From NCBI GenBank assembly GCA_050011555.1, contig JBEKIT010000002.1, positions 91,419 through 155,418 of the forward strand: 64,000 nucleotides of DNA. Direction: 5' to 3'. Below the pieces are notes generated by a model. The model had not been told where the DNA came from and made no database searches. It was given only the letters and a program-made list of their open reading frames with translations. The DNA is from Candidatus Dormibacteria bacterium. Lineage in GTDB: Bacteria; Chloroflexota; Dormibacteria; Aeolococcales; Aeolococcaceae. Shown here piece by piece: positions 24,790-60,741 of the stretch (positions within the stretch are counted from its first letter, which is position 1; every line of letters begins with the position of its first letter). The translations under genes were made by a program, and so were the position numbers.

Positions 24790-25317
24790 TCAGCCCTTCT
24801 CCCCTCCACTCGGGCGAGGCCACATCCCTTCGTCGGGCGGGGTGGGGCGATCATCCGGTGGGACCGTCCGATCGTCGGGGGGGGTCGACCGGTCATCCGA
24901 TGGCCGGCGCCGGTCGTCGAAGGAGGCACCGCCGGGAGGTCCGCCCGGCTGACCCTGCTGCCCCGGGAAGCCGAGGCTGCGCAGCAGGTTCTCCAGCTCC
25001 TCGGGCCCACCGAGGTCCTCCTGGACCCGCTCGGCGAAGCGGGAGAGCAGGTCGGAGAGCTGAGGATCCGCGGTCAGCTTCTCCTGCAGCCCGCCGAGTT
25101 GGGAGAAGAGGTCGCGCATGGCGGCCTCCTGGGCGACCTGCATGAGCACCGGCTGGGAGGCGGCGGCGGCGACCGCCTGGGCCTGCTGGCGCACCACCTC
25201 GAAGCCGCGGCAGCTCAGGCAGGTGCCCTCGTGCCCGCAGCGGCAGAGGCGCGACTTGAGACTGTCCAGCTCACGGTGCAGACCGGAGAGGTCGACTCCG
25301 GGTTGAGGATCGCCCAT
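24790..25317 (-). CDS. Hypothetical protein with a Cys cluster (CRCGHEGTCLSC) and a C-terminal PPDDR tandem repeat
   Basis: Sequence inspection only. Confidence 0.45.
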   Translation of the reverse strand: MGDPQPGVDLSGLHRELDSLKSRLCRCGHEGTCLSCRGFEVVRQQAQAVAAAASQPVLMQVAQEAAMRDLFSQLGGLQEKLTADPQLSDLLSRFAERVQEDLGGPEELENLLRSLGFPGQQGQPGGPPGGASFDDRRRPSDDRSTPPDDRTVPPDDRPTPPDEGMWPRPSGGEKG

Positions 25318-25391
25318 GCGTCGATCCTACGCGCCTCGGCGCCCCGGGACCCTGCGCCCCCGGCCCCGGCTCAGGCGGCTACAGTCGGTCG

Positions 25392-28669
<3,278 letters not shown>

Positions 28670-28843
28670 GGCGTCAGGGGCGAAGTTTGTCGCAACCGGG
28701 CCGCCTGGGTCCCGCCCGGACGCCTTGGGGCTGCGACGCTCCGGAGACGATTCCACCCGTGTGTTGCAACTGGCACCCTTTCGGGTATAGTCGTTGCAGG
28801 CGGGAGCTTTCGAGAGCCGCTGCCCCGGCCGTCCGTCGGCCAG

Positions 28844-31636
28844 ATGCCGCGTCATTGCCGCGAGCGCGTGCCTCCGAAGCTTCCCGGAATACGTGTGCTG
28901 CCGCCGCACGGCCATATCCTGCGGCGCATCGAGGTTGACAGTCCGCTGATCGCACCGGACCTCGCGCTCGACCGGCTTCACCTCATCGTGCCCGATGAGA
29001 GCGACGCCATGGTCGTGCTCACCACCCTTGCAAACGGCGGTGCCGCCGGAGCGGATCCCCGCGCCGTCTTTGCCGAGCGCCTCTCCGAGCTCGGCCACCT
29101 CACCGCCTCCTTCAGCGACGACGATCCCCCCCAGGTGCGGCTGGCGCTGCCCGATCTGACCCTGCAGTGCGTCCCCCAGCCCGACCCGGGCGGCGACCCC
29201 GCCCATCTCGCCCTCCGGGTGATCTCGCTCAAGCCGGTCAGCGACCATCCCGAGGGGGCCAAGATCCTGACCCTCACCGCCCGTCACCCGGTGGTCACCG
29301 CCGCCAACGGGGTGGCCAGCGACACCTTCCGGATCCTCGATTGGCGGCGTGCCGGTGCCAAGGCCGCCAAGAGCGAGCGCCTCTACGCCACCCTGAAGCT
29401 GGTCGAGCGCCTGGAGGGGGCGGAGAAGGGCCGAGCCCAGACCCAGCGAACCCGCTACATCGCCGCCCGCGAGTTCTGGCGCTGCAAGACCTGCCGGGCA
29501 CTCTGGCGGCCCGGGGAGCAGACCCAGTGCCCTTCCTGCGGACGCGAGTTCGGCGAGATGGACCGCAGGCAGCCGGAGATCGCCAAGGTCGAGTTCTCCG
29601 TTCCCGAGGGAGAGCCGCTCAACCTCGCCCCGGACGCGGCGGTGCTGGTGGAGCCGGAAGACGAGCCCAACTTCGTCGGCCGGGTCTCCCGGATCGACCA
29701 CCACCGGCACACCGTCGAGGTCACCACCCGCACCTTCGAGCATGCCGGGAGCGAGGGCTACATCACCCCCTCCTTCAACCGAGCCCTCTACCAGGCCAAG
29801 CGCTCGGTGCTGGCCGCGATCGCGACCCGGGATTTTGGGGTGGGTCTGCTCGCCCAGCTCCTGGTCGCCGCCGACACGGTGCGCTCGCCCGCGTACGTCC
29901 CGAGCACCGAGCCGGGGGGATGGCTCACCGAGGGGATGCAGGCGAACCCGCCCCAGGACCGGGCGGTCGCCCTCCTCTCCGGTCTCCAGGCCGGGCAGGC
30001 CGTCTTCATCCAGGGGCCGCCGGGGACCGGCAAGACGACGGTCATCGTGGAGGCCGTCAAACGGCGTCTCGCCGCCGATCCCGAGGAGCGGATCCTGGTC
30101 ACCTCCCACTCCAACCTGGCCGTCGACAACGCGCTGGAGCGGCTCGCCGGCACCCCCGGGATGCGGGCGGTGCGGGTCGCTCGGGCCGAGCGGGTCCACC
30201 CGGCGGTCGAGCGCTTCCGCTGCGACGACGAGGACGACCCACGGCTGATGGAGGCCAACTGCTACTTCGCCACCTGCGCGACGGCGGCCACCTCGGCGAT
30301 CACCGACATGAACTTCGACGTGGTCATCCTCGACGAGGCCAACAAGGCACGGGCCGACGAGTCCCTCCCAGCCCTGCGCCTCGGCTCGGCGCTCGCCCTG
30401 GTCGGCGACCACAAGCAGCTGCCCCCGGTCGAGGACGACTCCCTCTACGGCATCGTCGAGACCGATCCCTTCCTGGAGGAGCTGGTCAACACCTCTCTCT
30501 TCGAGATGGCCTGGGACGGCGGCCTTCCCGCCGAGGCCCGGTGCCTGCTGACCATCCAGCACCGGATGCACCCGCAGATCTCCGCCTACATCTCGCGTGC
30601 CTCCTACGAGGGCCAGCTCGAGGACGCACCGGAGGTTCAGGCCTATGAATTCGTGACCCGCAAGCCGCTGCCGGTCGCGCTTCACTTCGTCGACACCGAC
30701 GGCATGCGGGGAAGCCGGGAGCGCCGCGGCCCCGGTGGCGCCCTGCGCAACGAGACCGAGGTGCGGGTGGCGGCCCACGTGGTCCGCCTGCTCGACGAGC
30801 GCTGCCCGCGCGATCTGAGCATGGCGGTGATCGCCATGTACGCGGAGCAGGTGGAGCGGCTGCGCCAGGCTTTGGGGCGGCGCAAGTTCAAGCGGTCGGT
30901 GAAGATCGACACGGTCGACTCCTTCGAGGGCCGCGAGGAGGACCTGGTCGTCATCTCCCTGGTCCGCTCCAACGAGCGGGGCCGGATCGGCTTCCTGCGG
31001 GTGCCCAACCGGCTCAACGTCGCCGTCTCCCGGGCCAAGCGGCTGGTCGCCTGCATCGGCGATGCCAACACCCTGAGGTCCGGTGAGGAGTCGATGTACG
31101 GCGTGCTGGTCGAGGCTGCACGAGAGGCCGGCGGCTACGTCCTGGCCTCCGAGGTGGTGTCGCCGCGGCGCCGTGCCGACCATCCCTTCGGGACCGAAGG
31201 TGAGGCCGCTCCGGGCGAGGGCGCGGGGTCGCGCCGCCACCGCCGTCGCCGCCGGCCTGGCACCATCGCCGCGGTGCCGCCCGCGCTCGGGCCCGACGGT
31301 GGGCCGCTCGCTCCCGCGGCGGGCGCGGAGGGGCAGATCGGCCAGCCCGCGCGGCGCCGCCGTCGGCGCCGCCGTCGCGGGGGGTCGCACTCGGAGATGG
31401 GAGGAGCCCTCCCCGGGGCGGACGGCGAAGTGCCGCGTTCCGAGGGGGAGGCCGGCAGCACACCCCCGGCGGGCCAGGCCAACTCGCGGTCGCGCCGTCG
31501 CCGTCGCCGTCGCCACGGTCCGCGACCCCTGGGTGCGGGCGGCATCGAGGGCGGCTCGGCCACGCCGGGGACGGGTCCGAGTGGCGGCGAGAGCCCGGGC
31601 GGCGAGGCGGGCCCCCCGCCGTCCGCAGGCGACTGA
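28844..31636 (+). CDS. Superfamily 1 Upf1/DNA2-like helicase (AAA_11/AAA_12) with an N-terminal domain of unknown function containing a CxxC...CxxC zinc ribbon and a C-terminal poly-arginine tail. Start uncertain.
   Basis: Walker A GPPGTGKTT, DEANKA Walker B, QHRMHPQI, and motif VI VAVSRAKR. Zinc ribbon CKTCRALWRPGEQTQCPSCG. Tail has R6-R8 runs. Confidence 0.75.
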   Translation: MPRHCRERVPPKLPGIRVLPPHGHILRRIEVDSPLIAPDLALDRLHLIVPDESDAMVVLTTLANGGAAGADPRAVFAERLSELGHLTASFSDDDPPQVRLALPDLTLQCVPQPDPGGDPAHLALRVISLKPVSDHPEGAKILTLTARHPVVTAANGVASDTFRILDWRRAGAKAAKSERLYATLKLVERLEGAEKGRAQTQRTRYIAAREFWRCKTCRALWRPGEQTQCPSCGREFGEMDRRQPEIAKVEFSVPEGEPLNLAPDAAVLVEPEDEPNFVGRVSRIDHHRHTVEVTTRTFEHAGSEGYITPSFNRALYQAKRSVLAAIATRDFGVGLLAQLLVAADTVRSPAYVPSTEPGGWLTEGMQANPPQDRAVALLSGLQAGQAVFIQGPPGTGKTTVIVEAVKRRLAADPEERILVTSHSNLAVDNALERLAGTPGMRAVRVARAERVHPAVERFRCDDEDDPRLMEANCYFATCATAATSAITDMNFDVVILDEANKARADESLPALRLGSALALVGDHKQLPPVEDDSLYGIVETDPFLEELVNTSLFEMAWDGGLPAEARCLLTIQHRMHPQISAYISRASYEGQLEDAPEVQAYEFVTRKPLPVALHFVDTDGMRGSRERRGPGGALRNETEVRVAAHVVRLLDERCPRDLSMAVIAMYAEQVERLRQALGRRKFKRSVKIDTVDSFEGREEDLVVISLVRSNERGRIGFLRVPNRLNVAVSRAKRLVACIGDANTLRSGEESMYGVLVEAAREAGGYVLASEVVSPRRRADHPFGTEGEAAPGEGAGSRRHRRRRRPGTIAAVPPALGPDGGPLAPAAGAEGQIGQPARRRRRRRRRGGSHSEMGGALPGADGEVPRSEGEAGSTPPAGQANSRSRRRRRRRHGPRPLGAGGIEGGSATPGTGPSGGESPGGEAGPPPSAGD

Positions 31637-31717
31637 GCCGCCCGCGGGCGGGGGTCGGCGGCGAGCTCCGCGCGTCGGAGCCGCGTGCTCAGCACCCCTG
31701 CTAGCCTTCTCGCCGCG

Positions 31718-32308
31718 ATGAGCGATCAGGTCACCGTCTACGTCCGCGGCGGCGATCCGGCCTGCGCGGCGGCCCTCCAGTACCTCTCTCAGCGGGGCGT
31801 CGAGCACCGGGTGCGCGACATCCTCACCGACCCGTCGGCGAGCGCCATCCTGCTCGGCCGGCTGGGCCGGGTCACGGTCCCGGCCTTTCAGATCGGCGAG
31901 CGCCTGATCGTCGGCTTCGATCCCGTCCAGCTCGCCCGCTTCCTGCCCCGTCCCGAGGGGGAGGCGGGTCCGAGCGTGAGCTTCGGCGCCGGGGTGCGCA
32001 CGGTGACGGCTGCGATCGCCGCCGCCCACGGGCTTCCCGCCGCCTACGGGGTCGAGGTGGGGCCGGTGCGCGAGGGCTCCCCGGCCGCCGCCGCCGGGGT
32101 GAGCCCTGGGGACGTCATCACCGCCATCGGCGCCTACACCCTCACCGGCGGGGAGGCCCAGTTCCGGACCGCGGTGGCCGCCCGACACCCGGGCGACGCC
32201 ATGGCGATCACGGTCTGGCGGGACGGCACCTCGCAGGACCTGGCGGTCCAGTTCCCCGGTGCCGACGACGAGCCGGTGGTCTCCCCGGAGGCGGGCCGCC
32301 CCGCCTGA
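31718..32308 (+). CDS. Glutaredoxin/NrdH-like thioredoxin-fold domain fused to a PDZ domain
   Basis: VTVYVRGGDPACAAAL (CxxC, Grx-like) followed by a PDZ-like GVEVGPVREGSPAAAAGVSPGDVITAI. Confidence 0.55.
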   Translation: MSDQVTVYVRGGDPACAAALQYLSQRGVEHRVRDILTDPSASAILLGRLGRVTVPAFQIGERLIVGFDPVQLARFLPRPEGEAGPSVSFGAGVRTVTAAIAAAHGLPAAYGVEVGPVREGSPAAAAGVSPGDVITAIGAYTLTGGEAQFRTAVAARHPGDAMAITVWRDGTSQDLAVQFPGADDEPVVSPEAGRPA

Positions 32309-32326
32309 CGAAGCTGCGGCGGGCCG

Positions 32327-32599
32327 TCACCAGCCGGGAGGCGGCTCCGAGCGGTTGAGCAGGCGCACGAAGTCCTCGGCCCGGGCCACGGCCTCCCAGC
32401 GGCGGCTGAAGAAGTCCTGGCAGATCATCCGACCGTCGGCCACGCTGGTCACCGTCACCGCCCACTGGTTGAGGGCCTTGGAGACCTCGACCTCGTAGGT
32501 CTCGGCGTCGTTGCGCACCACCAGACCGGTGGGAGCCGGCCGGCGCTGCAGTCTTTCATTGCGGTGGGGGGACGCCATAGCCATCGCAGATACCTCCAC
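32327..32599 (-). CDS. Small hypothetical protein
   Basis: ORF only. Confidence 0.25.
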   Translation of the reverse strand: MEVSAMAMASPHRNERLQRRPAPTGLVVRNDAETYEVEVSKALNQWAVTVTSVADGRMICQDFFSRRWEAVARAEDFVRLLNRSEPPPGW

Positions 32600-32787
32600 G
32601 GACGATCGGGGACCCGGACCCGGCAGCGAGACCTCGGTGCTCTAGAGAATCGGGGGAGCGACACCGAGCAGCCTGAGCCGCTGGGCACCGGACATCCCGC
32701 AGGCATCTATTCTCGCGCATCCGGGGCCCGGAGAGAAGCCCGGGCAGCGACAGCACCACGGGCGGGCCCCGGGTGGCGGCCGCGGAA

Positions 32788-33798
32788 TCAGACGTCGAGG
32801 GAGAGCTGCCCTGATTGTGCCACAACCGGCCCGGCCGGCGATCTCGGGGACCCCTCGACGGCAACCGGCGCGGGAGGCTCGGGGGCAGCGCGCGCCCACC
32901 CGGGGACCTCCCCGTCGCGGTCCTCCATCCGCTGCAGGATCGGTCCCGGAGGACGGGGCAGATCCACCCCCAGGAGGTGGGCCATGTCGAAGCCGTTGAC
33001 CACCGCGTAGTTGCTCCGATTGTTGTTCATGAGCACGTGGACGGGAACGCCCCGCTCGGCGGCGGCCTGGATCGCCGGTACCCACTGCGCCAGCTCGGAC
33101 GGCGGGTAGAGGTAGTCGAAGCGCTCGCCGGTCGTCGCTGTCTTCCGGTACCAGGTCTGGTAGTTGCGGCCGTGGAAGCGCACCAGCACCAGGCGGGGGG
33201 AGGTGACCGCCAGATGGGGTGGCGCGGTCCCGCTCCCGAGCTGGGGGGCATCCACCCCCACCAGGGTGCAGTCCAGCTCCCGGAGCAGATCCTCGGTCTC
33301 CGCGAGCCGGCCCGGCTCGAACCAGGAGCGGTGCCGGAACTCGACGGCGAGGACATCGCCCGGGTGCCGCTCACGGGCACGCAGCACCGCCTCGCGGCCC
33401 GCGGTGCCGGCCACCAGCCAGGGTGGGAACTGGTAGTGCACCGCGCCCAGCTTCCCGGAAGCACGGAGCGGGGCCAGTGCCTCGAGGAAGGACCGCTCCT
33501 CCTCCGCGGTCGGGGCGCGGGGGCGGCCCTGCTCGCGCTCATGACCGGTCAGGCTCCGGTAGGCCTTGATGTTGAAGAGGAAGTCATCCGGGGTGCGGGC
33601 CACCCACCCGGCGACCCGATCGGGTGTCGGGATCCCGTAGAAGCTGGTGTCGATCTCGACGAGGGGGAAGTAGCGGGCATAGAAGCTGAGCCGCTCGGGC
33701 TGCCGCCGGCCCCGGAGCTCGTCGGGGTAGAACTCCTCGTGGTCGAGCCAGTTGCAGGTCCCGACCAGGATCGGGGCGGGCGCCCGCCGTGCCTCCAT
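32788..33798 (-). CDS. DUF72 (UPF0759) family protein
   Basis: ILVGTCNW ... FYARYFPLVEIDTSFY signature. Confidence 0.75.
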   Translation of the reverse strand: MEARRAPAPILVGTCNWLDHEEFYPDELRGRRQPERLSFYARYFPLVEIDTSFYGIPTPDRVAGWVARTPDDFLFNIKAYRSLTGHEREQGRPRAPTAEEERSFLEALAPLRASGKLGAVHYQFPPWLVAGTAGREAVLRARERHPGDVLAVEFRHRSWFEPGRLAETEDLLRELDCTLVGVDAPQLGSGTAPPHLAVTSPRLVLVRFHGRNYQTWYRKTATTGERFDYLYPPSELAQWVPAIQAAAERGVPVHVLMNNNRSNYAVVNGFDMAHLLGVDLPRPPGPILQRMEDRDGEVPGWARAAPEPPAPVAVEGSPRSPAGPVVAQSGQLSLDV

Positions 33799-52408: not shown

Positions 52409-52484
52409 TGGTACCCGCTACAGGACTCGAACCTGTGACCAAGGGATTAAGAGTCCCCTGCTCTACCAACTGAGCTAAGCGGGC
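52409..52484 (-). tRNA. tRNA-Lys (anticodon CTT)
   Basis: The reverse complement GCCCGCTTAGCTCAGTTGGTAGAGCAGGGGACTCTTAATCCCTTGGTCACAGGTTCGAGTCCTGTAGCGGGTACCA folds as a canonical cloverleaf with encoded CCA. The 7-nt anticodon loop is CUCUUAA. Confidence 0.85.
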
Positions 52485-56767: not shown

Positions 56768-58059
56768 TCAGGCGACCGGGATGGCCCGGATCTGATAGAC
56801 GGGCTTGGGCGGCAGGGGGGTGTCGACCAGGGCGTCCGCGAACGTCTGGCTGCAGCTGGTCTCCGCCTGCGTCTGGGTCGCGAGGACGTTGCCGCCCAGG
56901 CCGCCGCCGGGCAGCACGCATTCGTAGCGGGCCGACCCGTCGCCCCCGACCCACCCCACGAAGGCCGTGACGCTCACGTCCTAGGCGGCGGTGACGGTGG
57001 CCCCGGCGGCCGGGATGCTGCCCTCCCACTGATCTGCGTGTAGTAGTGGGTCACGCAGCTTCCCGAGCTGAGCGCCGGCACGTCCTCGGTGGTCCCGTCG
57101 CCGAAGTTCCAGTGCACCGAATCGGAGGGCGCCACCGAGAGATAGAAGGAGTAGACGATGGAGACGCCCTGGGAGTCGGGCGCGCCCATCAGGTCGTCGA
57201 TGGTCGGAGCCACGTCGTCGCCCTCGGGCTGTGGAGCGACCCAGAAGCAGGTGGGGGCGAAGACCAGGTAGTTGTCCGGGGCGTCGGTCTCGACCTGGCC
57301 GGCGGCGACGGTGAGCTGGGCGAGGGCCTGTGCCTCGGTCGCGGGTACCGAGAACGGCGCGGCAGGCGGGACGCCGGGTCCGGGGTTGTGGGCCGGTACG
57401 GTGGTCGCGCTCACGGTGAGCACCCCCGGGTCGTGGCAGAGGCCGTTCTGCCAGGTCCCCGGCGTGGTCGGGTCGGAGGTGACCTTCACGTCCACGACGT
57501 CGTCATCGATCCCGGAGAAGACCTACAGCCCGTTGGCGAGGCCCTTGCCGATCAGGTATGTCGGGGGCGCCGGAGGGTAGGGCGAGAGCGGCGCGTCCCA
57601 GTTGCCCCCGGGGACGGTCGTCGAGTCGCTGCCGGAGTAGAAAGCGTCGGTGTCGGTGGCGAACTCCCCGCCGGTGGTGCCGCTCCAGAAGGCGATCGGG
57701 AATGCCTCCAGTCTGCCCGCCCCGCCGGCGGGCGTGATCTCGGTCGATCGACCGATGAGCTGCGCCTCCTCCCACCCGGTGTCGATGGTGCAGGCGCCGG
57801 TCCGAACCTCGGCCGGGGTGCCCTGGCCGGTTCCCCCGTTGCGGCCGTCGGTGCCCGTGCCCGGGCAGTAGAGGGTGAGATCGCCGGCCGCCGTGAGGCT
57901 GCCGGAGGTTGGCCTGAGGATGGTGAGGCCCGTGGCGGTCTGACAATCGAAGGAGCCTGCGCCGCCGCCGCCGCCGCCCGCCGCTCGCGCCGTCCCGCCT
58001 GGCACGGACCAGAGGATTGCGAGGATTGGAAGCGCGATCATCGCGCGACAGAGCCTCAC
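56768..58059 (-). pseudogene. Secreted Gly/Thr-rich protein with a PKD-like domain, interrupted by an in-frame TAG (57523-57525) and a frame change near 56975
   Basis: Signal peptide MRLCRAMIALPILAILWS. ORF1 and ORF2 are in the same frame, separated only by TAG plus 9 codons. ORF2 has the PKD-like WNFGDGTT...THYYT. A third ORF continues in another frame to 56768. Confidence 0.45.
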
Positions 58060-58937
58060 ACGCCGCTCTCCGCGAGGATCGACGCTACATCGGCACCTGC
58101 GCTTGAGTTGACTGAGGCTTCCATCTCCAAGTAGTCACCCAAGGCCGGGGCGGTCTTCGTCTCAGTGATCTCGAGCTCCTGATACTCTTGGCCCGCGCCT
58201 ATTGGGTAGTCGGTGACCTGACCAGTCGCTGACGTCCACTCGGTGATACAGGGACCCGCCCAAGTCAACGCGTACGCGACGCCGGGAGTGCTGATGCGAG
58301 CTCCCGTGAACTCGGACATCTCATCAGCCGTGATGATCATTGCGTACACCTTGATCGGGTACTCGCAGGCGGCCGTTTCGTCCACTACCTTGCCGCCTTG
58401 TTCGATGAAGGCGGTCACGTTGTTCCCCGTCGGAAGCAGGAAGCGCATGAAATCGTACTGTGCGTGCTGCCCCGCCCACTCCCAAAGAGCCCAGAGGGTG
58501 CTGTCGAGCTGCACCCACGTCGCGAGGGCCGCATCGGTCACTTGACCACCGGTCAGGTTCTTCGTTTGTACTGGGAGAGGGTTCGGCGTGATCTCAGAGC
58601 ACGCAGGGACCATCGTCGCGTACATCTGGAACCACGCTTGCTTTACGGCCGTCAGGTTCGGGAGGTTGAGTTGGTCGTTGGCCAGCGCCGATGCTGCTCC
58701 GGGGATCGGCGTGTCCTGTGCGTCGCAAAACGAGGCGGGTGTGTCGGCCGGGGTTGACGTGGGTGTCGCCGATGGGACGTGGGCCCGCGTACTCGCCGGG
58801 ACGGCTGATGGAGATGCCGTTGCACCACAGCCCGGGAGCAGCCCGATCGCGATAGATAGCGCGATGATCCGGGCGGCACTTCTGAGCCAGCCCCGGCGCG
58901 CGTGGCTCGCGGGTATTCGTGCGGGACGGGCGCCCAT
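58056..58937 (-). CDS. Lipoprotein of unknown function. Start taken at the Met preceding the lipobox LLPGC.
   Basis: Signal peptide with lipobox. Reduced GC relative to its surroundings. Confidence 0.5.
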   Translation of the reverse strand: MGARPARIPASHARRGWLRSAARIIALSIAIGLLPGCGATASPSAVPASTRAHVPSATPTSTPADTPASFCDAQDTPIPGAASALANDQLNLPNLTAVKQAWFQMYATMVPACSEITPNPLPVQTKNLTGGQVTDAALATWVQLDSTLWALWEWAGQHAQYDFMRFLLPTGNNVTAFIEQGGKVVDETAACEYPIKVYAMIITADEMSEFTGARISTPGVAYALTWAGPCITEWTSATGQVTDYPIGAGQEYQELEITETKTAPALGDYLEMEASVNSSAGADVASILAESGV

Positions 58938-59245
58938 GGTCTCTCCTTCCCCAGAAACCGCAGGTTGCGGCGGCGCAGCATACAGACAACCGCACCCCGT
59001 TTGCTGAAGGCGCCGCTGGCCCCGATCCCGCGCTGGGTCACGGCGCACCTGATTGTCCGGAACGGGCCACTCCCCGCTACTCCCGGAGGTCACCATGACC
59101 GCCAGCCTATGGGGCGCCCTCAGACACGGGGCGGACATTCCAGACCTCGTTCCTTGATCGGCCCGCCAAGCCCGCTCCCCGACACCGCAGGCTGGGTGAT
59201 GTAGCTGAGCGAGTGTACCTGTGCGGCTTCCGCCCCGTGGGCGGT

Positions 59246-59731
59246 TCACCCGGGGTGCAAACGCCCGTCGCGGCTGGCATCGAAGTCGCGCACGAAGTCC
59301 TGGAGGTCGTCTACCATGAGAAGCCTCCGGGCGCCCTTGGAGCGAAGGTTATCGAACAGATTCGCGGCGAAGCGGCGCGCCAGGCGGCCGTCGCCCGGTC
59401 TACGGTAGTCCTCGAGGTCCACCATGAAACGGAAGCTGGCGAAGTCGAGGACACCGTCCGACTCGTAGTCGTGGCCATCGATGACGTCTGCCAGCATGGC
59501 CGCGTTCCAGAGCGAGACCCCCTCGGTCCCCCAGTCGGTCGTGAAGGGTCGACTGTCAACGCCGGACAGCGCGGCCTCTCGGGCGGCTGCGACGACGGCG
59601 TCGAGCGAGAATGGCCCATCAATGAAGGGTTGCCACTCGATGTGGCTGTCGTCGTCTATGGCCATGAGATCTCCCAAGCGGCGCCGATGATTCTTATGGT
59701 TGTCAAGCGATTCCTGCCGGCGCCCAGTCAC
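59246..59731 (-). CDS. Small ORF in the position of a putative immunity gene (function unknown). It overlaps the upstream toxin-like gene by 4 nt.
   Basis: Translational coupling (ATGA) and reduced GC. No family motif recognised. Confidence 0.4.
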   Translation of the reverse strand: MTGRRQESLDNHKNHRRRLGDLMAIDDDSHIEWQPFIDGPFSLDAVVAAAREAALSGVDSRPFTTDWGTEGVSLWNAAMLADVIDGHDYESDGVLDFASFRFMVDLEDYRRPGDGRLARRFAANLFDNLRSKGARRLLMVDDLQDFVRDFDASRDGRLHPG

Positions 59732-60741
59732 CTCCGAAGGCCGCGCAGTGCCTCTATCTCTGTCAGGTCGGATTCACGGCCATCCAAAATTGCACTCGCC
59801 ACCTGTCCAGGCGTCAACGTTCCGAACTGCCCGTTGGCGCTCTTCAGCGCGCTTCGAACTGTGACGATGGTGGCCGAGCCGCCCGGCGGTCCGGTGAGCG
59901 TCTTGAACTCTGTAGGCTGTCCGTCGACCAGCGCATCGTACATACGTTGACCGGGAACCCCAGATTCCGCCACCGAGACCACGGTGTGCCCTTCGCCGGC
60001 GAGGAACTGGCCCACCCGGAGTTCATCCGGTGAGAACGGGCGCGCAGAATCGTCCACCGCGGACCCGTCGTCGGCGGCCGGCGGGTTGAGGTTGGCATCG
60101 CCCCCGCCCCCCGGCCCAAGGTCCCCATGGAAGTCGCCCCCGGCGCTGTGCCACAGCCCACCCTCGACCTCCGAGAGCGCCCCATTGAGCGCGCTGCTCG
60201 CCGCCTCTCCGGCGTCGAAGATGGGCACGACGTCGTCGCCCGTCTGGTCGAAGTCGGGGTCCGTCCGATCCAGGAGGTCGGCCCCGAGCTGGCTGAGGGC
60301 GTCAGAGCCGAAGCCACTGAGGGCGCCTCCCTGGGCGGCGTTGAGGACGGTGAGCGCGGCCATCAGGCCGAGCTGGATCCAGTGCTCGTTCTGGGCGTGC
60401 TCGAGCTCGTCGGCGTAGTCGCGCAGCTCCCGGGCGAAGGCGACGAGGTTGTCGCCCAGAGTGTTGAGGACGGTGGAGGGCGAGCCCCGGGTGCCGGCCG
60501 TCCACGCGCCGCGGAATGAGGTGGCGGCCGTCCCGGTCCACGATTGGGTGAGGGTGATGACGGCGTCATCGAGGGCGAGGGTCGCCCTGCGGTACTCGGC
60601 GGTGAGCGCGTCGACCATCTCGGCGATCTGGCGGATGCGCCCCGGATCGCCGGCCGGCCCGGTGAGGAAGCCGCCCATGTCGCCGAGGACGTTGCCCGCA
60701 CCGGTGAGCAGGAAGGTGGACAGGTCTCCCCCCGCTGACAT
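59728..60741 (-). CDS. Putative WXG100-like polymorphic toxin: N-terminal WXG100-like domain, Gly/Asp-rich linker, and C-terminal restriction-endonuclease-fold (PD-(D/E)xK) nuclease-like domain
   Basis: LTQSWTGTAATSFRGAW (WxG) with a YADELEHAQ helix. C-terminal AESG...YDALVDGQPTEFKTL fits a D-x9-E-x-K core. GC drops across the C-terminal half. Confidence 0.55.
   Translation of the reverse strand: MSAGGDLSTFLLTGAGNVLGDMGGFLTGPAGDPGRIRQIAEMVDALTAEYRRATLALDDAVITLTQSWTGTAATSFRGAWTAGTRGSPSTVLNTLGDNLVAFARELRDYADELEHAQNEHWIQLGLMAALTVLNAAQGGALSGFGSDALSQLGADLLDRTDPDFDQTGDDVVPIFDAGEAASSALNGALSEVEGGLWHSAGGDFHGDLGPGGGGDANLNPPAADDGSAVDDSARPFSPDELRVGQFLAGEGHTVVSVAESGVPGQRMYDALVDGQPTEFKTLTGPPGGSATIVTVRSALKSANGQFGTLTPGQVASAILDGRESDLTEIEALRGLRR

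What the first reader, a model, noticed from the sequence alone, without database searches (positions are those of the whole stretch)
28844..31636. Large Upf1-like SF1 helicase with an uncharacterised zinc-ribbon N-terminal domain and a poly-arginine tail
An ORF of about 930 aa has a complete Upf1/DNA2-type helicase core (GPPGTGKTT, DEANKA, QHRMHPQI, VAVSRAKR). It is preceded by an N-terminal region of about 390 aa with no motif I recognise except a CxxC-x15-CxxC zinc ribbon. It is followed by a C-terminal tail of about 150 aa with R6-R8 runs and G/P/E-rich low complexity, like the RNA-binding tails of RNase E or eukaryotic RNA helicases. Prokaryotic Upf1-like helicases occur in several antiphage or anti-plasmid proteins, but the N-terminal domain here carries no obvious nuclease motif. 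The gene sits alone between a polysaccharide flippase gene and a Grx-PDZ gene.
Basis: partly seen in the sequence, partly recalled or inferred. Interest (0 to 1): 0.55.

Follow-up and report, generated by a model that had tools for sequence, protein, structure and literature searches.

The report
Dormibacterota core helicase with structured leader
This is a real, strongly conserved Upf1-type helicase gene found in the chromosome of at least 64 species of the uncultured soil phylum Dormibacterota; it is a housekeeping gene rather than a phage-defence gene, it has a new acidic N-terminal domain and an arginine-rich tail, and it sits behind a previously undescribed folded RNA leader.

Summary
The ORF is real and its helicase motifs, zinc ribbon and three poly-Arg tracts are present. 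The window comes from a Candidatus Dormibacterota genome (72% GC).

Orthologs at 68-95% identity occur at one locus each in at least 64 species-representative genomes. They lie in the same chromosomal neighbourhood of metabolic genes and are usually followed within 9-94 nt by a Grx-PDZ gene. dN/dS is 0.04-0.13 outside the tail. No nuclease, mobile element or defence partner is nearby, so the antiphage hint is not supported.

Two extra findings:
- A conserved TTGCAA-16-TATAGT promoter is followed by a ~150-nt leader with covariation-supported structure and no Rfam match. It was seen only in front of this gene.
- No canonical start codon is conserved. Coding periodicity begins at CTG 28946, not at ATG 28844.

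Most likely function: a housekeeping 5'-3' RNA (or RNA/DNA) helicase, possibly autoregulated through its leader.

The parts
28764..28791 (+). Sigma-70-type promoter, TTGCAA-16 nt-TATAGT
   Evidence: It is the only promoter-like site in 28400-32900 (expected 0.1). Both hexamers are invariant in 9 close species while the flanks vary. TTGCAx-N16-TATAGT lies 167-203 nt upstream of the CDS in 45 of 54 orthologous loci.
28796..28945 (+). Conserved structured 5' leader RNA (~150 nt). P1 is CGGGA 28801-28805 paired with UCCCG 28882-28886. P5 is CGCCG 28902-28906 paired with CGGCG 28922-28926. An SD-like GAGG lies at 28931-28934.
   Evidence: Conservation is at nucleotide level with frame-breaking indels between clades. 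RNAalifold gives -44.7 kcal/mol on 13 sequences. Covariance model R1 gives one full-length hit per locus, always directly upstream of the helicase, in 41 loci including the window. 91% of cells are paired and 28 of 42 pairs show compensatory changes. The covariation score is 0.221, against 0.087 shuffled and 0.03-0.04 slid. No Rfam family matches.
28946..31636 (+). Helicase coding sequence as supported by conservation (896 codons plus stop). The start codon is unresolved. The candidates are ATG 28844, GTG 28868, GTG 28895, CTG 28946, ATC 28949 and ATG 29009.
   Evidence: Strict 3-periodic variation begins at codon CTG 28946 in 52 distinct orthologous sequences. The three upstream candidates are not conserved. 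At least 6 species have an in-frame stop and no ATG/GTG/TTG upstream. ATG 29009 is ATG in 56 of 56 loci.
28946..29329 (+). N-terminal acidic alpha/beta domain (~128 aa; strand-helix-helix followed by five strands), specific to this family
29330..29449 (+). First stalk helices (basic, pI 10.9)
   Evidence: Helices 145-158 and 161-183 in the model. L-V..E..E is invariant across the family. The whole-model Foldseek alignment to Upf1, IGHMBP2 and SETX spans 594-759 columns.
29450..29569 (+). Zinc ribbon CxxC-x11-CxxC (Cys codons within 29483-29539), inserted between stalk and barrel
   Evidence: Direct reading of the sequence. All four Cys are kept in every full-length member, including the distant P0127 and P0129. 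Only weak generic zinc-ribbon Pfam hits appear.
29570..29944 (+). 1B-type beta-barrel (to ~29779) plus the second stalk helices and a linker
   Evidence: Strands 230-292 and helices 296-324 in the model. There is a weak Pfam SEN1_barrel hit (E 0.083). IGHMBP2 and Upf1 chains align over nearly their full length.
29945..31150 (+). SF1B motor with RecA1 (Walker A at 30014-30040, Walker B DEANKA at 30332-30349) and RecA2 (QHRMHPQI at 30557-30580, VAVSRAKR at 31019-31042)
   Evidence: Pfam AAA_11 and AAA_12. PDB sequence hits are IGHMBP2 (1e-37), Upf1, SETX, Sen1, Dna2 and ZNFX1. Foldseek E is about 1e-30. dN/dS is 0.044.
31151..31633 (+). Disordered Arg/Gly/Pro/Ala-rich tail (161 aa, pI 11.85) with three poly-Arg tracts at 31241-31255, 31352-31378 and 31493-31513
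   Evidence: The tracts are conserved in position while the spacers vary. Two or three R/K runs occur in all complete Dormibacterota orthologs. They are absent from the distant relatives P0127 and P0129. dN/dS is 0.39.
31685..32308 (+). Downstream partner gene encoding a glutaredoxin-fold plus PDZ protein (207 aa), probably co-transcribed
   Evidence: Pfam Glutaredoxin plus PDZ_2/PDZ_6. It is found downstream in 50 of 70 loci, which is nearly all loci with enough downstream sequence. The Grx domain starts 9-94 nt after the helicase stop in most loci. This fusion protein is itself lineage-restricted, with 349 hits and the best 120 at 57-95% identity, the named ones all Dormibacterota MAGs apart from one labelled Binatia. 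The CxxC motif is replaced by DPxC or DPxS.

Best explanation
The gene encodes a vertically inherited, core-genome Upf1-like (SF1B) helicase that is specific to the phylum Dormibacterota.

The motor is a complete ATP-driven 5'-to-3' single-strand translocase with the family's stalk and 1B barrel. Three additions have been grafted onto it:
1. A zinc ribbon between the stalk and the barrel.
2. A new acidic ~130-aa N-terminal domain.
3. A ~160-aa disordered tail with three poly-arginine tracts.

The most likely role is housekeeping RNA metabolism, meaning remodelling or clearing RNA, RNA-protein complexes or RNA:DNA hybrids. In that reading the Arg tail supplies sequence-independent nucleic-acid affinity. 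The acidic N-domain would act as a partner-binding or self-inhibitory module, not as a nuclease.

The gene is transcribed from its own conserved promoter through a ~150-nt structured leader. That leader probably controls its translation, and feedback by the helicase itself is the simplest model. The gene is co-expressed with a redox-inactive Grx-PDZ adaptor protein.

Shown here: the protein architecture, the phylum-wide synteny, purifying selection, the promoter, the leader structure and the absence of defence partners.

Inferred: RNA as the substrate, autoregulation through the leader, and the roles of the N-domain, the tail and the Grx-PDZ protein.
For: Motor:
- Pfam AAA_11 and AAA_12 are both well above cut-off and all motifs are intact.
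- The closest solved relatives are IGHMBP2, Upf1, SETX/Sen1, Dna2 and ZNFX1. This holds by sequence (E down to 1e-37) and by fold over 594-759 aligned columns, which covers the stalk and barrel.

Core-gene status:
- At least 120 clusters at 69-92% identity are all named Dormibacteria-type.
- There is one locus in each of 64 GTDB species representatives, including Ca. Dormibacter, Aeolococcus, Amunia and Changshengia.
- The neighbourhood is conserved. HpcH-family lyase, acyl-CoA dehydrogenase, N6_N4 methyltransferase and folate genes lie upstream. Grx-PDZ, DUF72, inositol monophosphatase, FabI and FabF lie downstream.
- dN/dS is 0.044 for the core, 0.09 for the N-domain and 0.13 for stalk/ZnR/barrel.

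Tail:
- The poly-R tracts are conserved in all complete orthologs.

Leader:
- The promoter is conserved.
- The structure is supported by covariation.
- The leader was found only in front of this gene in 881 kb of Dormibacterota loci and in a metagenome scan.
- From established knowledge, bacterial RNA-metabolism genes such as rne, pnp, rho and deaD are typically autoregulated through long structured 5' leaders. This is circumstantial support for an RNA role.
Against: - No experiment exists and the phylum is uncultured.
- Upf1-like motors also act on ssDNA (Dna2, and IGHMBP2 in vitro), and nothing tested here separates RNA from DNA substrates.
- In a 72% GC genome Arg replaces Lys generally, so an Arg-rich tail is not specific to RNA binding.
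- The N-domain's function is unknown.
- The Grx-PDZ partner is missing in one clade (L007, L037, L051, L053), so it is not obligatory.
- The leader could respond to something other than the helicase, such as a metabolite, temperature or another protein.
- The alignment used for covariation was fitted to the model, which inflates the pair counts somewhat.
Confidence: 0.55

Rival explanations
1. It is a single-gene antiphage or anti-plasmid defence helicase. On this view it is Mokosh MkoA-like, CoCoNuT CnuH-like or Hhe-like, and it senses foreign nucleic acid while its N-domain acts as an effector.
For: The PADLOC MkoA models score 327 and 256 bits. The N-domain shows a weak RelE/ParE/colicin-D-like topology. 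CoCoNuT CnuH helicases are Upf1-like and carry a RelE/colicin-D-like 'RTL' domain ahead of the motor (PMC11090510).
Against: - The MkoA match covers only the helicase core (profile positions 767-1098 of 1112).
- No MkoB/PLD, McrB/McrC, CnuE/HEPN or any other nuclease gene is adjacent.
- There is one conserved syntenic locus in 64 species, among metabolic genes, with dN/dS of 0.04-0.13. That is the opposite of the patchy, island-borne pattern of defence genes.
- On plasmids and phages only the core finds relatives, at 28-36% identity.
- The N-domain is acidic and no catalytic-type residues are conserved across the family.
Confidence: 0.06
2. It is a housekeeping DNA helicase or translocase. On this view it works in replication, repair or R-loop and ssDNA processing, like a nuclease-less Dna2 or Pif1-type enzyme, and not as an RNA helicase.
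For: Dna2 is among the close structural and sequence relatives. The basic tail and zinc ribbon could bind DNA equally well. Core-genome status fits either role.
Against: The top sequence and fold matches are RNA-acting members (IGHMBP2, Upf1, SETX/Sen1), slightly ahead of Dna2. A long structured 5' leader is more typical of RNA-metabolism genes, which is an inference. No replication or repair genes are in the conserved neighbourhood.
Confidence: 0.27
3. The N-domain is an active RelE-like endoribonuclease. The protein would then be a helicase-nuclease that cleaves mRNA on stalled ribosomes, a bacterial analogue of Upf1 working with an endonuclease.
Against: - No Pfam RelE/ParE match appears even at E<=10.
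- The domain is acidic (pI 4.5-5.3 in most members, 6.6 in the fragment P0135; net negative in all six measured), whereas RelE-type RNases are basic (the property of RelE is from general knowledge).
- The only residues invariant across distant members (D-P, D-T-x-R-xxx-W) lie at a helix start and at the junction with the stalk, which suggests a structural role.
Confidence: 0.05

Closest known systems
IGHMBP2 (SMUBP-2) / Upf1 / Senataxin-Sen1 helicase cores (eukaryotic Upf1-like SF1B helicases)
   Same: All share the SF1B motor with every motif, the helical stalk and the 1B beta-barrel preceding RecA1. These are the best matches by sequence (IGHMBP2 E 1e-37) and by fold (E about 1e-30 over 594-759 columns). 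Like IGHMBP2 and Upf1, the protein carries nucleic-acid-binding or regulatory appendages at both ends.
   Different: Identity is only 20-24%, and the score is below the NCBIfam IGHMBP2 cut-off (217 against 349 bits). There is no Upf1 CH domain and no IGHMBP2 R3H or AN1 domains. Instead there is a Zn ribbon inserted between stalk and barrel, a new acidic N-domain and a poly-Arg tail. The protein is bacterial and restricted to one phylum.
CoCoNuT CnuH helicases (Type II/III-A; Bell et al., eLife 2024, PMC11090510)
   Same: Both are prokaryotic Upf1-like helicases with an OB/stalk element. Both have a domain of RelE/colicin-D-like fold N-terminal to the motor that shows no sequence similarity to the toxins.
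   Different: CnuH has an SmpB-like OB domain and a large coiled-coil insertion after Walker A. It is encoded with CnuE nucleases, McrB/McrC homologues and often TerY-P. None of these is present here. The RelE-like resemblance here is weak.
Mokosh MkoA (PADLOC PDLC03920/03921)
   Same: There is a strong HMM match to the helicase part (327 bits).
   Different: The match is limited to the motor. There is no MkoB or PLD nuclease gene or domain. The gene is core and syntenic, not island-borne.
Autoregulatory 5' leaders of bacterial RNA-metabolism genes (rne, pnp, rho, deaD)
   Same: A long, structured, conserved 5' UTR lies between a dedicated promoter and the coding start of a nucleic-acid enzyme gene.
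   Different: There is no sequence or Rfam relationship. Regulation has not been tested. The comparison rests on general knowledge of those systems.

Membership tests
Upf1-like SF1B helicases (Pfam AAA_11 + AAA_12) | Both Pfam domains score above their gathering scores | tested here: met
   AAA_11 scores 119.6 bits and AAA_12 scores 154.3 bits, against a cut-off of 27 for each.
Upf1-like SF1B helicases (Pfam AAA_11 + AAA_12) | Intact Walker A, Walker B, motif III (GDxxQLPP), motif V and motif VI | tested here: met
   GPPGTGKTT, DEANKA, GDHKQLPP, TVDSFEGREEDLVVISLVRSN and GFLRVPNRLNVAVSRAKR are all present. They are identical or nearly so in the 20 aligned sequences (window plus 19 orthologs).
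Upf1-like SF1B helicases (Pfam AAA_11 + AAA_12) | Helical stalk plus 1B beta-barrel N-terminal to or inserted in RecA1 | tested here: met
   The model has helices 145-183 and 296-324 flanking a barrel at 230-292. Nearly full-length alignments were obtained to IGHMBP2, Upf1 and SETX chains. There is a weak SEN1_barrel hit. Residue-level superposition was not inspected.
IGHMBP2 family helicase (NCBIfam TIGR00376) | Whole-protein score at or above the curated cut-off | tested here: not met
   The score is 217.3 bits against a cut-off of 348.9.
Upf1 proper | N-terminal CH (Cys/His-rich, multi-zinc) domain | tested here: not met
   No such Pfam hit was found. Only one CxxC-x11-CxxC ribbon is present, and it lies between the stalk and the barrel.
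Mokosh (MkoA/MkoB or MkoC) | Full-length match to MkoA, plus a PLD nuclease partner gene or fused PLD domain | tested here: not met
   The HMM match covers profile positions 767-1098 only. No PLD domain is present in the protein or its neighbours in the window or in 5 related loci.
CoCoNuT CnuH | Operon with a CnuE nuclease and McrB/McrC-like CnuB/CnuC, plus a coiled-coil insertion after Walker A | tested here: not met
   The neighbours are Grx-PDZ, DUF72 and metabolic genes. The model shows no large insertion after Walker A.
RelE/ParE (BECR-fold) toxins, for the N-domain | Significant fold or sequence similarity | tested here: inconclusive
RelE/ParE (BECR-fold) toxins, for the N-domain | Basic RNA-binding surface, conserved catalytic residues and a cognate antitoxin gene | tested here: not met
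   pI is 4.5-5.3 in most family members (6.6 in the fragment P0135), with net negative charge in all six measured. No conserved basic or catalytic set was found. No small upstream or downstream antitoxin-like gene is conserved.
Any Rfam family, for the 5' leader | Covariance-model match | tested here: not met
   There was no hit at the gathering threshold in the window. There was no + strand hit at E<=10 on the window leader or the L001 leader.

The most novel reading that the evidence does not exclude
The locus may be a phylum-specific, self-regulating RNA-surveillance module.

The parts would work as follows:
- The Upf1-type motor is delivered to its targets by a new acidic N-domain derived from the RelE/ParE fold and by a Grx-PDZ adaptor.
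- The protein is held on RNA by poly-Arg tracts.
- Its own synthesis is set by a new class of structured leader RNA that it unwinds or binds.
- Translation starts at a non-canonical codon (AUH or CUG).

This would give bacteria an analogue of eukaryotic Upf1/IGHMBP2/Sen1-type RNA quality control or termination. It would also define a new cis-regulatory RNA family.
Probability: 0.15. Interest if true: 0.8.

Novelty: new variant of a known kind. Interest (0 to 1): 0.5.

Why it matters
Upf1-like helicases are central to eukaryotic RNA surveillance and transcription termination. In bacteria they are known almost only from defence systems. A single-copy, strongly constrained, syntenic Upf1-like helicase across a whole uncultured phylum points to a housekeeping role for this motor in bacteria.

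Its appendages give concrete handles for biochemistry. These are a new acidic domain, an inserted zinc ribbon and conserved poly-Arg tracts.

The conserved promoter and the covariation-supported leader are a candidate new cis-regulatory RNA. It can be tested directly by in-line probing and reporter fusions. The lack of any conserved canonical start codon raises a specific question about translation initiation in Dormibacterota.

The result also corrects public annotation. Existing gene calls start at different codons (930, 913 and about 875 aa) and carry only generic names.

Tried and rejected
- **Stop-codon readthrough into Grx-PDZ.** The two genes share a frame in the window, separated by one TGA. 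Most orthologous loci have them in different frames, so this is coincidence.
- **PDZ domain binding the helicase C-terminus.** The C-termini are Pro/Ala/Gly-rich but not conserved. The clade lacking Grx-PDZ does have different ends, but that is a single lineage. Not supported.
- **The 1610-aa antisense ORF 27356-32188.** Only its 3' part (27356 to ~28650) has minus-strand coding signal and is the membrane protein. The remainder is a high-GC artefact.
- **The leader as a known riboswitch or leader family.** No Rfam match was found.
- **The leader in front of other genes.** A loose pattern scan of metagenomes returned more than 120 stretches. Nearly all were chance matches in coding DNA or terminator hairpins. 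Only those with the TATAGT box and the helicase start are genuine.
- **The search for related loci with the divergent N-terminal alignment.** It failed because no stretch was conserved enough. The single-protein query was used instead.
- **Foldseek against AFDB50.** The library was not available. The N-domain was therefore compared only with solved structures.
- **A shared partner gene in the distant relatives P0127 and P0129.** Their downstream genes are unrelated to Grx-PDZ or to each other.
- **Local cUUCGg hairpin at the 5' end of the leader.** RNAalifold on the all-clade MAFFT alignment recovered only this hairpin and a two-pair helix near the 3' end. It competes with the long-range P1 helix. 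Whether this is a switch or an alignment artefact was not resolved.
Full report
**1. The observation**

The frame from ATG 28844 to the stop at 31634-31636 is open and encodes 930 aa. The window is 72% GC, so long spurious ORFs are common. One example is a 1610-aa antisense ORF at 27356-32188. A frame plot nevertheless shows third-position GC of about 0.9 in the helicase frame from ~28950 to ~31000. The stretch 27350-28600 codes on the minus strand instead.

Pfam AAA_11 (119.6 bits) and AAA_12 (154.3 bits) are far above their cut-offs. All quoted motifs are present. The zinc ribbon is CxxC-x11-CxxC, not x15. The Arg runs are R5 (within RRHRRRRR), R9 and R7.

**2. Organism and distribution**

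The 120 best database relatives are 69-92% identical and 733-967 aa long (nearly all 830-970). Where named, they come from Candidatus Dormibacteria or Dormibacteraeota MAGs. The window protein is itself in public collections, called as both 930 and 913 aa, with only generic names.

A scan of one genome per GTDB species with the N-terminal 348 aa found 64 loci, one per genome, at 68-95% identity. Apart from a few submitter mislabels they are all Dormibacterota. They include Ca. Dormibacter, Aeolococcus gillhamiae, Amunia macphersoniae and Changshengia.

**3. Genomic context**

In the window and in five long contigs from other members, the gene lies in the same neighbourhood:
- Upstream: folate genes, N6_N4 methyltransferase, acyl-CoA dehydrogenase and an HpcH-family lyase.
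- Downstream: Grx-PDZ, DUF72 on the opposite strand, inositol monophosphatase, FabI-like reductase and ketoacyl synthase.

tblastn over 70 loci found Grx-PDZ downstream in 50. That is nearly every locus with at least 1 kb of downstream sequence. DUF72 was found in 46 and HpcH in 44. The Grx domain begins 9-94 nt after the helicase stop in most loci, so the two genes are probably co-transcribed. One clade (L007, L037, L051, L053) lacks Grx-PDZ.

The window has an insertion between the methyltransferase and the helicase that the other loci lack. It consists of two GDP-mannose-dehydratase-family genes and a membrane protein. No transposase, nuclease, restriction, McrBC or PLD gene is adjacent. 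The nearest unusual cluster is a WXG100-like protein with four unannotated ORFs about 27 kb away.

**4. Selection**

Twelve pairwise comparisons with orthologs of 88-93% identity gave these median dN/dS values:

| Region | dN/dS |
|---|---|
| Helicase core | 0.044 |
| N-domain | 0.09 |
| Stalk / Zn ribbon / barrel | 0.13 |
| Tail | 0.39 |

The tail value is uncertain because low-complexity sequence aligns poorly. Even so, 2-3 runs of 5-11 R/K are kept in every complete Dormibacterota ortholog.

**5. Architecture**

An AlphaFold2 model of residues 1-762 (numbered from GTG 28895) has pLDDT 78 and pTM 0.72. It shows, in order:
- an alpha/beta N-domain at residues 20-140, with pLDDT about 90;
- helices 145-183;
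- a zinc ribbon at about 186-220;
- a beta-barrel at 230-292;
- helices 296-324;
- the two RecA domains.

Foldseek against the PDB gives SETX, Upf1, IGHMBP2, Sen1, Dna2 and ZNFX1 at E of about 1e-30. The alignments span 594-759 columns. They cover nearly the whole IGHMBP2 and Upf1 helicase chains, which include the stalk and 1B barrel. A weak Pfam SEN1_barrel hit falls on the barrel.

**6. The N-domain**

phmmer of the N-terminal 348 aa against 1.84 billion cluster representatives found only 19 proteins. All belong to this family or are fragments of it. The only divergent full-length members are P0127 (746 aa, 32% identity) and P0129 (776 aa, 30% identity). Both keep the N-domain, the four Cys and the motor. 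Both lack the poly-Arg tail and sit in unrelated neighbourhoods.

On plasmids and phages only the motor finds relatives, at 28-36% identity.

The domain is acidic in most members (pI 4.5-5.3; 6.6 in the fragment P0135), with net negative charge in all six measured. The only residues invariant across distant members are D-P at the start of helix 2 and D-T-x-R-xxx-W at the junction with the stalk.

I therefore treat the RelE/ParE resemblance as a topological lead and not as membership. An active RelE-type RNase is unlikely. CoCoNuT CnuH helicases are a published precedent for a Upf1-like motor preceded by a RelE/colicin-D-like domain. However, every other defining feature of those systems is absent here.

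**7. Start codon and leader**

A TTGCAA-16-TATAGT promoter at 28764-28791 is the only such site in the region. Both hexamers are invariant in nine close species while the flanks vary. The same promoter lies 167-203 nt upstream of the coding region in 45 of 54 loci.

Between the promoter and the CDS, the DNA is conserved at nucleotide level with frame-breaking indels between clades. ATG 28844, GTG 28868 and GTG 28895 are each replaced by non-start codons in sister species.

Per-position entropy over 52 distinct orthologous sequences shows strict 3-base periodicity beginning exactly at CTG 28946, the L of LIAPDL. There is no periodicity upstream of that point.

In at least six species an in-frame stop lies 15-30 codons upstream with no ATG, GTG or TTG in between. 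One of these MAGs has about 1x coverage and should be discounted. The only universally conserved canonical start is ATG 29009. However, the 21 codons before it are clearly translated, and they are conserved in P0127 and P0135, which have ATG codons just upstream. The start therefore remains unresolved. The options are non-canonical initiation at CUG or AUH (28946-28951), or clade-specific starts.

**8. Leader structure**

RNAalifold on 13 leaders of one clade gives -44.7 kcal/mol. The predicted structure has:
- a long-range helix P1 (CGGGA/UCCCG plus UUCGGG/CCCGAA) enclosing two variable hairpins;
- a second domain (P4 and P5) holding an SD-like GAGG just before the CDS.

A covariance model built from that alignment finds one full-length hit per locus in 41 loci, including the window (28796-28954). 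Every hit is immediately upstream of the helicase, and there are none elsewhere in 881 kb.

On the resulting alignment 91% of cells pair. The controls give 81% when shuffled (0 of 500 shuffles reach the observed value) and 28-46% when slid. Twenty-eight of 42 pairs show compensatory changes. The covariation score is 0.221, against 0.087 shuffled and 0.03-0.04 slid. The caveat is that this alignment was fitted to the model. The window clade fits P4 poorly.

No Rfam family matches. A metagenome pattern scan returned mostly chance matches. The genuine leaders there are all followed by this helicase.

**9. The partner protein**

The Grx-PDZ protein is itself lineage-restricted. It has 349 hits and the best 120 are 57-95% identical; the named ones are all Dormibacterota MAGs apart from one labelled Binatia. 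Its Grx active site reads DPxC or DPxS in place of CxxC. It is therefore more likely an adaptor than an oxidoreductase.

**10. Interpretation**

What is shown:
- a complete Upf1-like motor with stalk and barrel;
- three lineage-specific additions;
- core-genome, syntenic, single-locus inheritance under strong constraint;
- a dedicated promoter and a structured leader;
- no defence or mobile context.

What is inferred:
- a housekeeping role on RNA or RNA:DNA, suggested by the nearest relatives, the basic tail and the leader (a feature typical of autoregulated RNA-metabolism genes);
- the N-domain as a partner-binding or self-inhibitory module;
- autoregulation through the leader.

A DNA-directed role cannot be excluded and I give it about one chance in four. 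A defence role is largely refuted.

**11. Verdict**

This is a new variant of a known kind: a Upf1-like SF1B helicase with a new domain set, specific to Dormibacterota. Interest is moderate for the protein alone. The undescribed leader RNA and the start-codon anomaly raise it somewhat.

Noticed in passing
window 28764-28945 (+): A conserved promoter (TTGCAA-16-TATAGT) is followed by a ~150-nt leader with covariation-supported secondary structure and no Rfam match. It was found only upstream of this helicase, in 41 Dormibacterota loci and in metagenome contigs.
   Followed up: yes
window 28844-29011 (+): No canonical start codon is conserved for the helicase. ATG 28844, GTG 28868 and GTG 28895 are mutated in sister species, and several species have an in-frame stop with no ATG/GTG/TTG before the conserved coding part. 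Codon periodicity starts at CTG 28946, followed by ATC 28949. ATG 29009 is the only universally conserved canonical codon. This may indicate non-canonical initiation.
   Followed up: partly
window 31685-32308 (+): The Grx-PDZ partner has DPAC (DPxC or DPxS in homologs) where glutaredoxins have CxxC, so it is probably redox-inactive. The fusion protein is itself restricted to Dormibacterota-type genomes.
   Followed up: partly
window 31634-31687 (+): The helicase and the Grx-PDZ gene are in the same reading frame, separated by a single TGA. Most orthologous loci have them in different frames, so this is coincidence and not readthrough.
   Followed up: yes
window 25260-28700: Two adjacent, overlapping ORFs of the GDP-mannose-4,6-dehydratase family (25260-26390 and 26311-27390, +) and a multi-pass membrane protein with no Pfam hit (27356 to ~28650, -) lie between the N6_N4 methyltransferase and the helicase. 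Other Dormibacterota loci have HpcH, hydrolase or other genes there, so this looks like a lineage-specific insertion of polysaccharide genes.
   Followed up: partly
window 27356-32188 (-): A 1610-aa antisense ORF spans the whole helicase gene. Only its 3' part has coding signal, and that part is the membrane protein. The rest is a high-GC artefact.
   Followed up: yes
window 57500-60741 (-): A stretch with lower GC (0.65 against 0.72) holds a WXG100-like-domain protein (59728-60741) followed by four ORFs with no Pfam match. This resembles a polymorphic-toxin and immunity cluster. It is about 27 kb from the helicase.
   Followed up: no
window 52409-52484 (-): tRNA-Lys (anticodon CTT) is the only RNA gene detected in the window.
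   Followed up: no
L003-L005 and L006 (loci of P0127 and P0129): There are two rare, divergent relatives with 30-32% identity in the N-terminal part. They have the same N-domain, Zn-ribbon and helicase architecture but no poly-Arg tail and no Grx-PDZ neighbour. They lie on contigs of 72% and 60% GC of unknown taxonomy. P0129 lies near a serine recombinase gene.
   Followed up: partly
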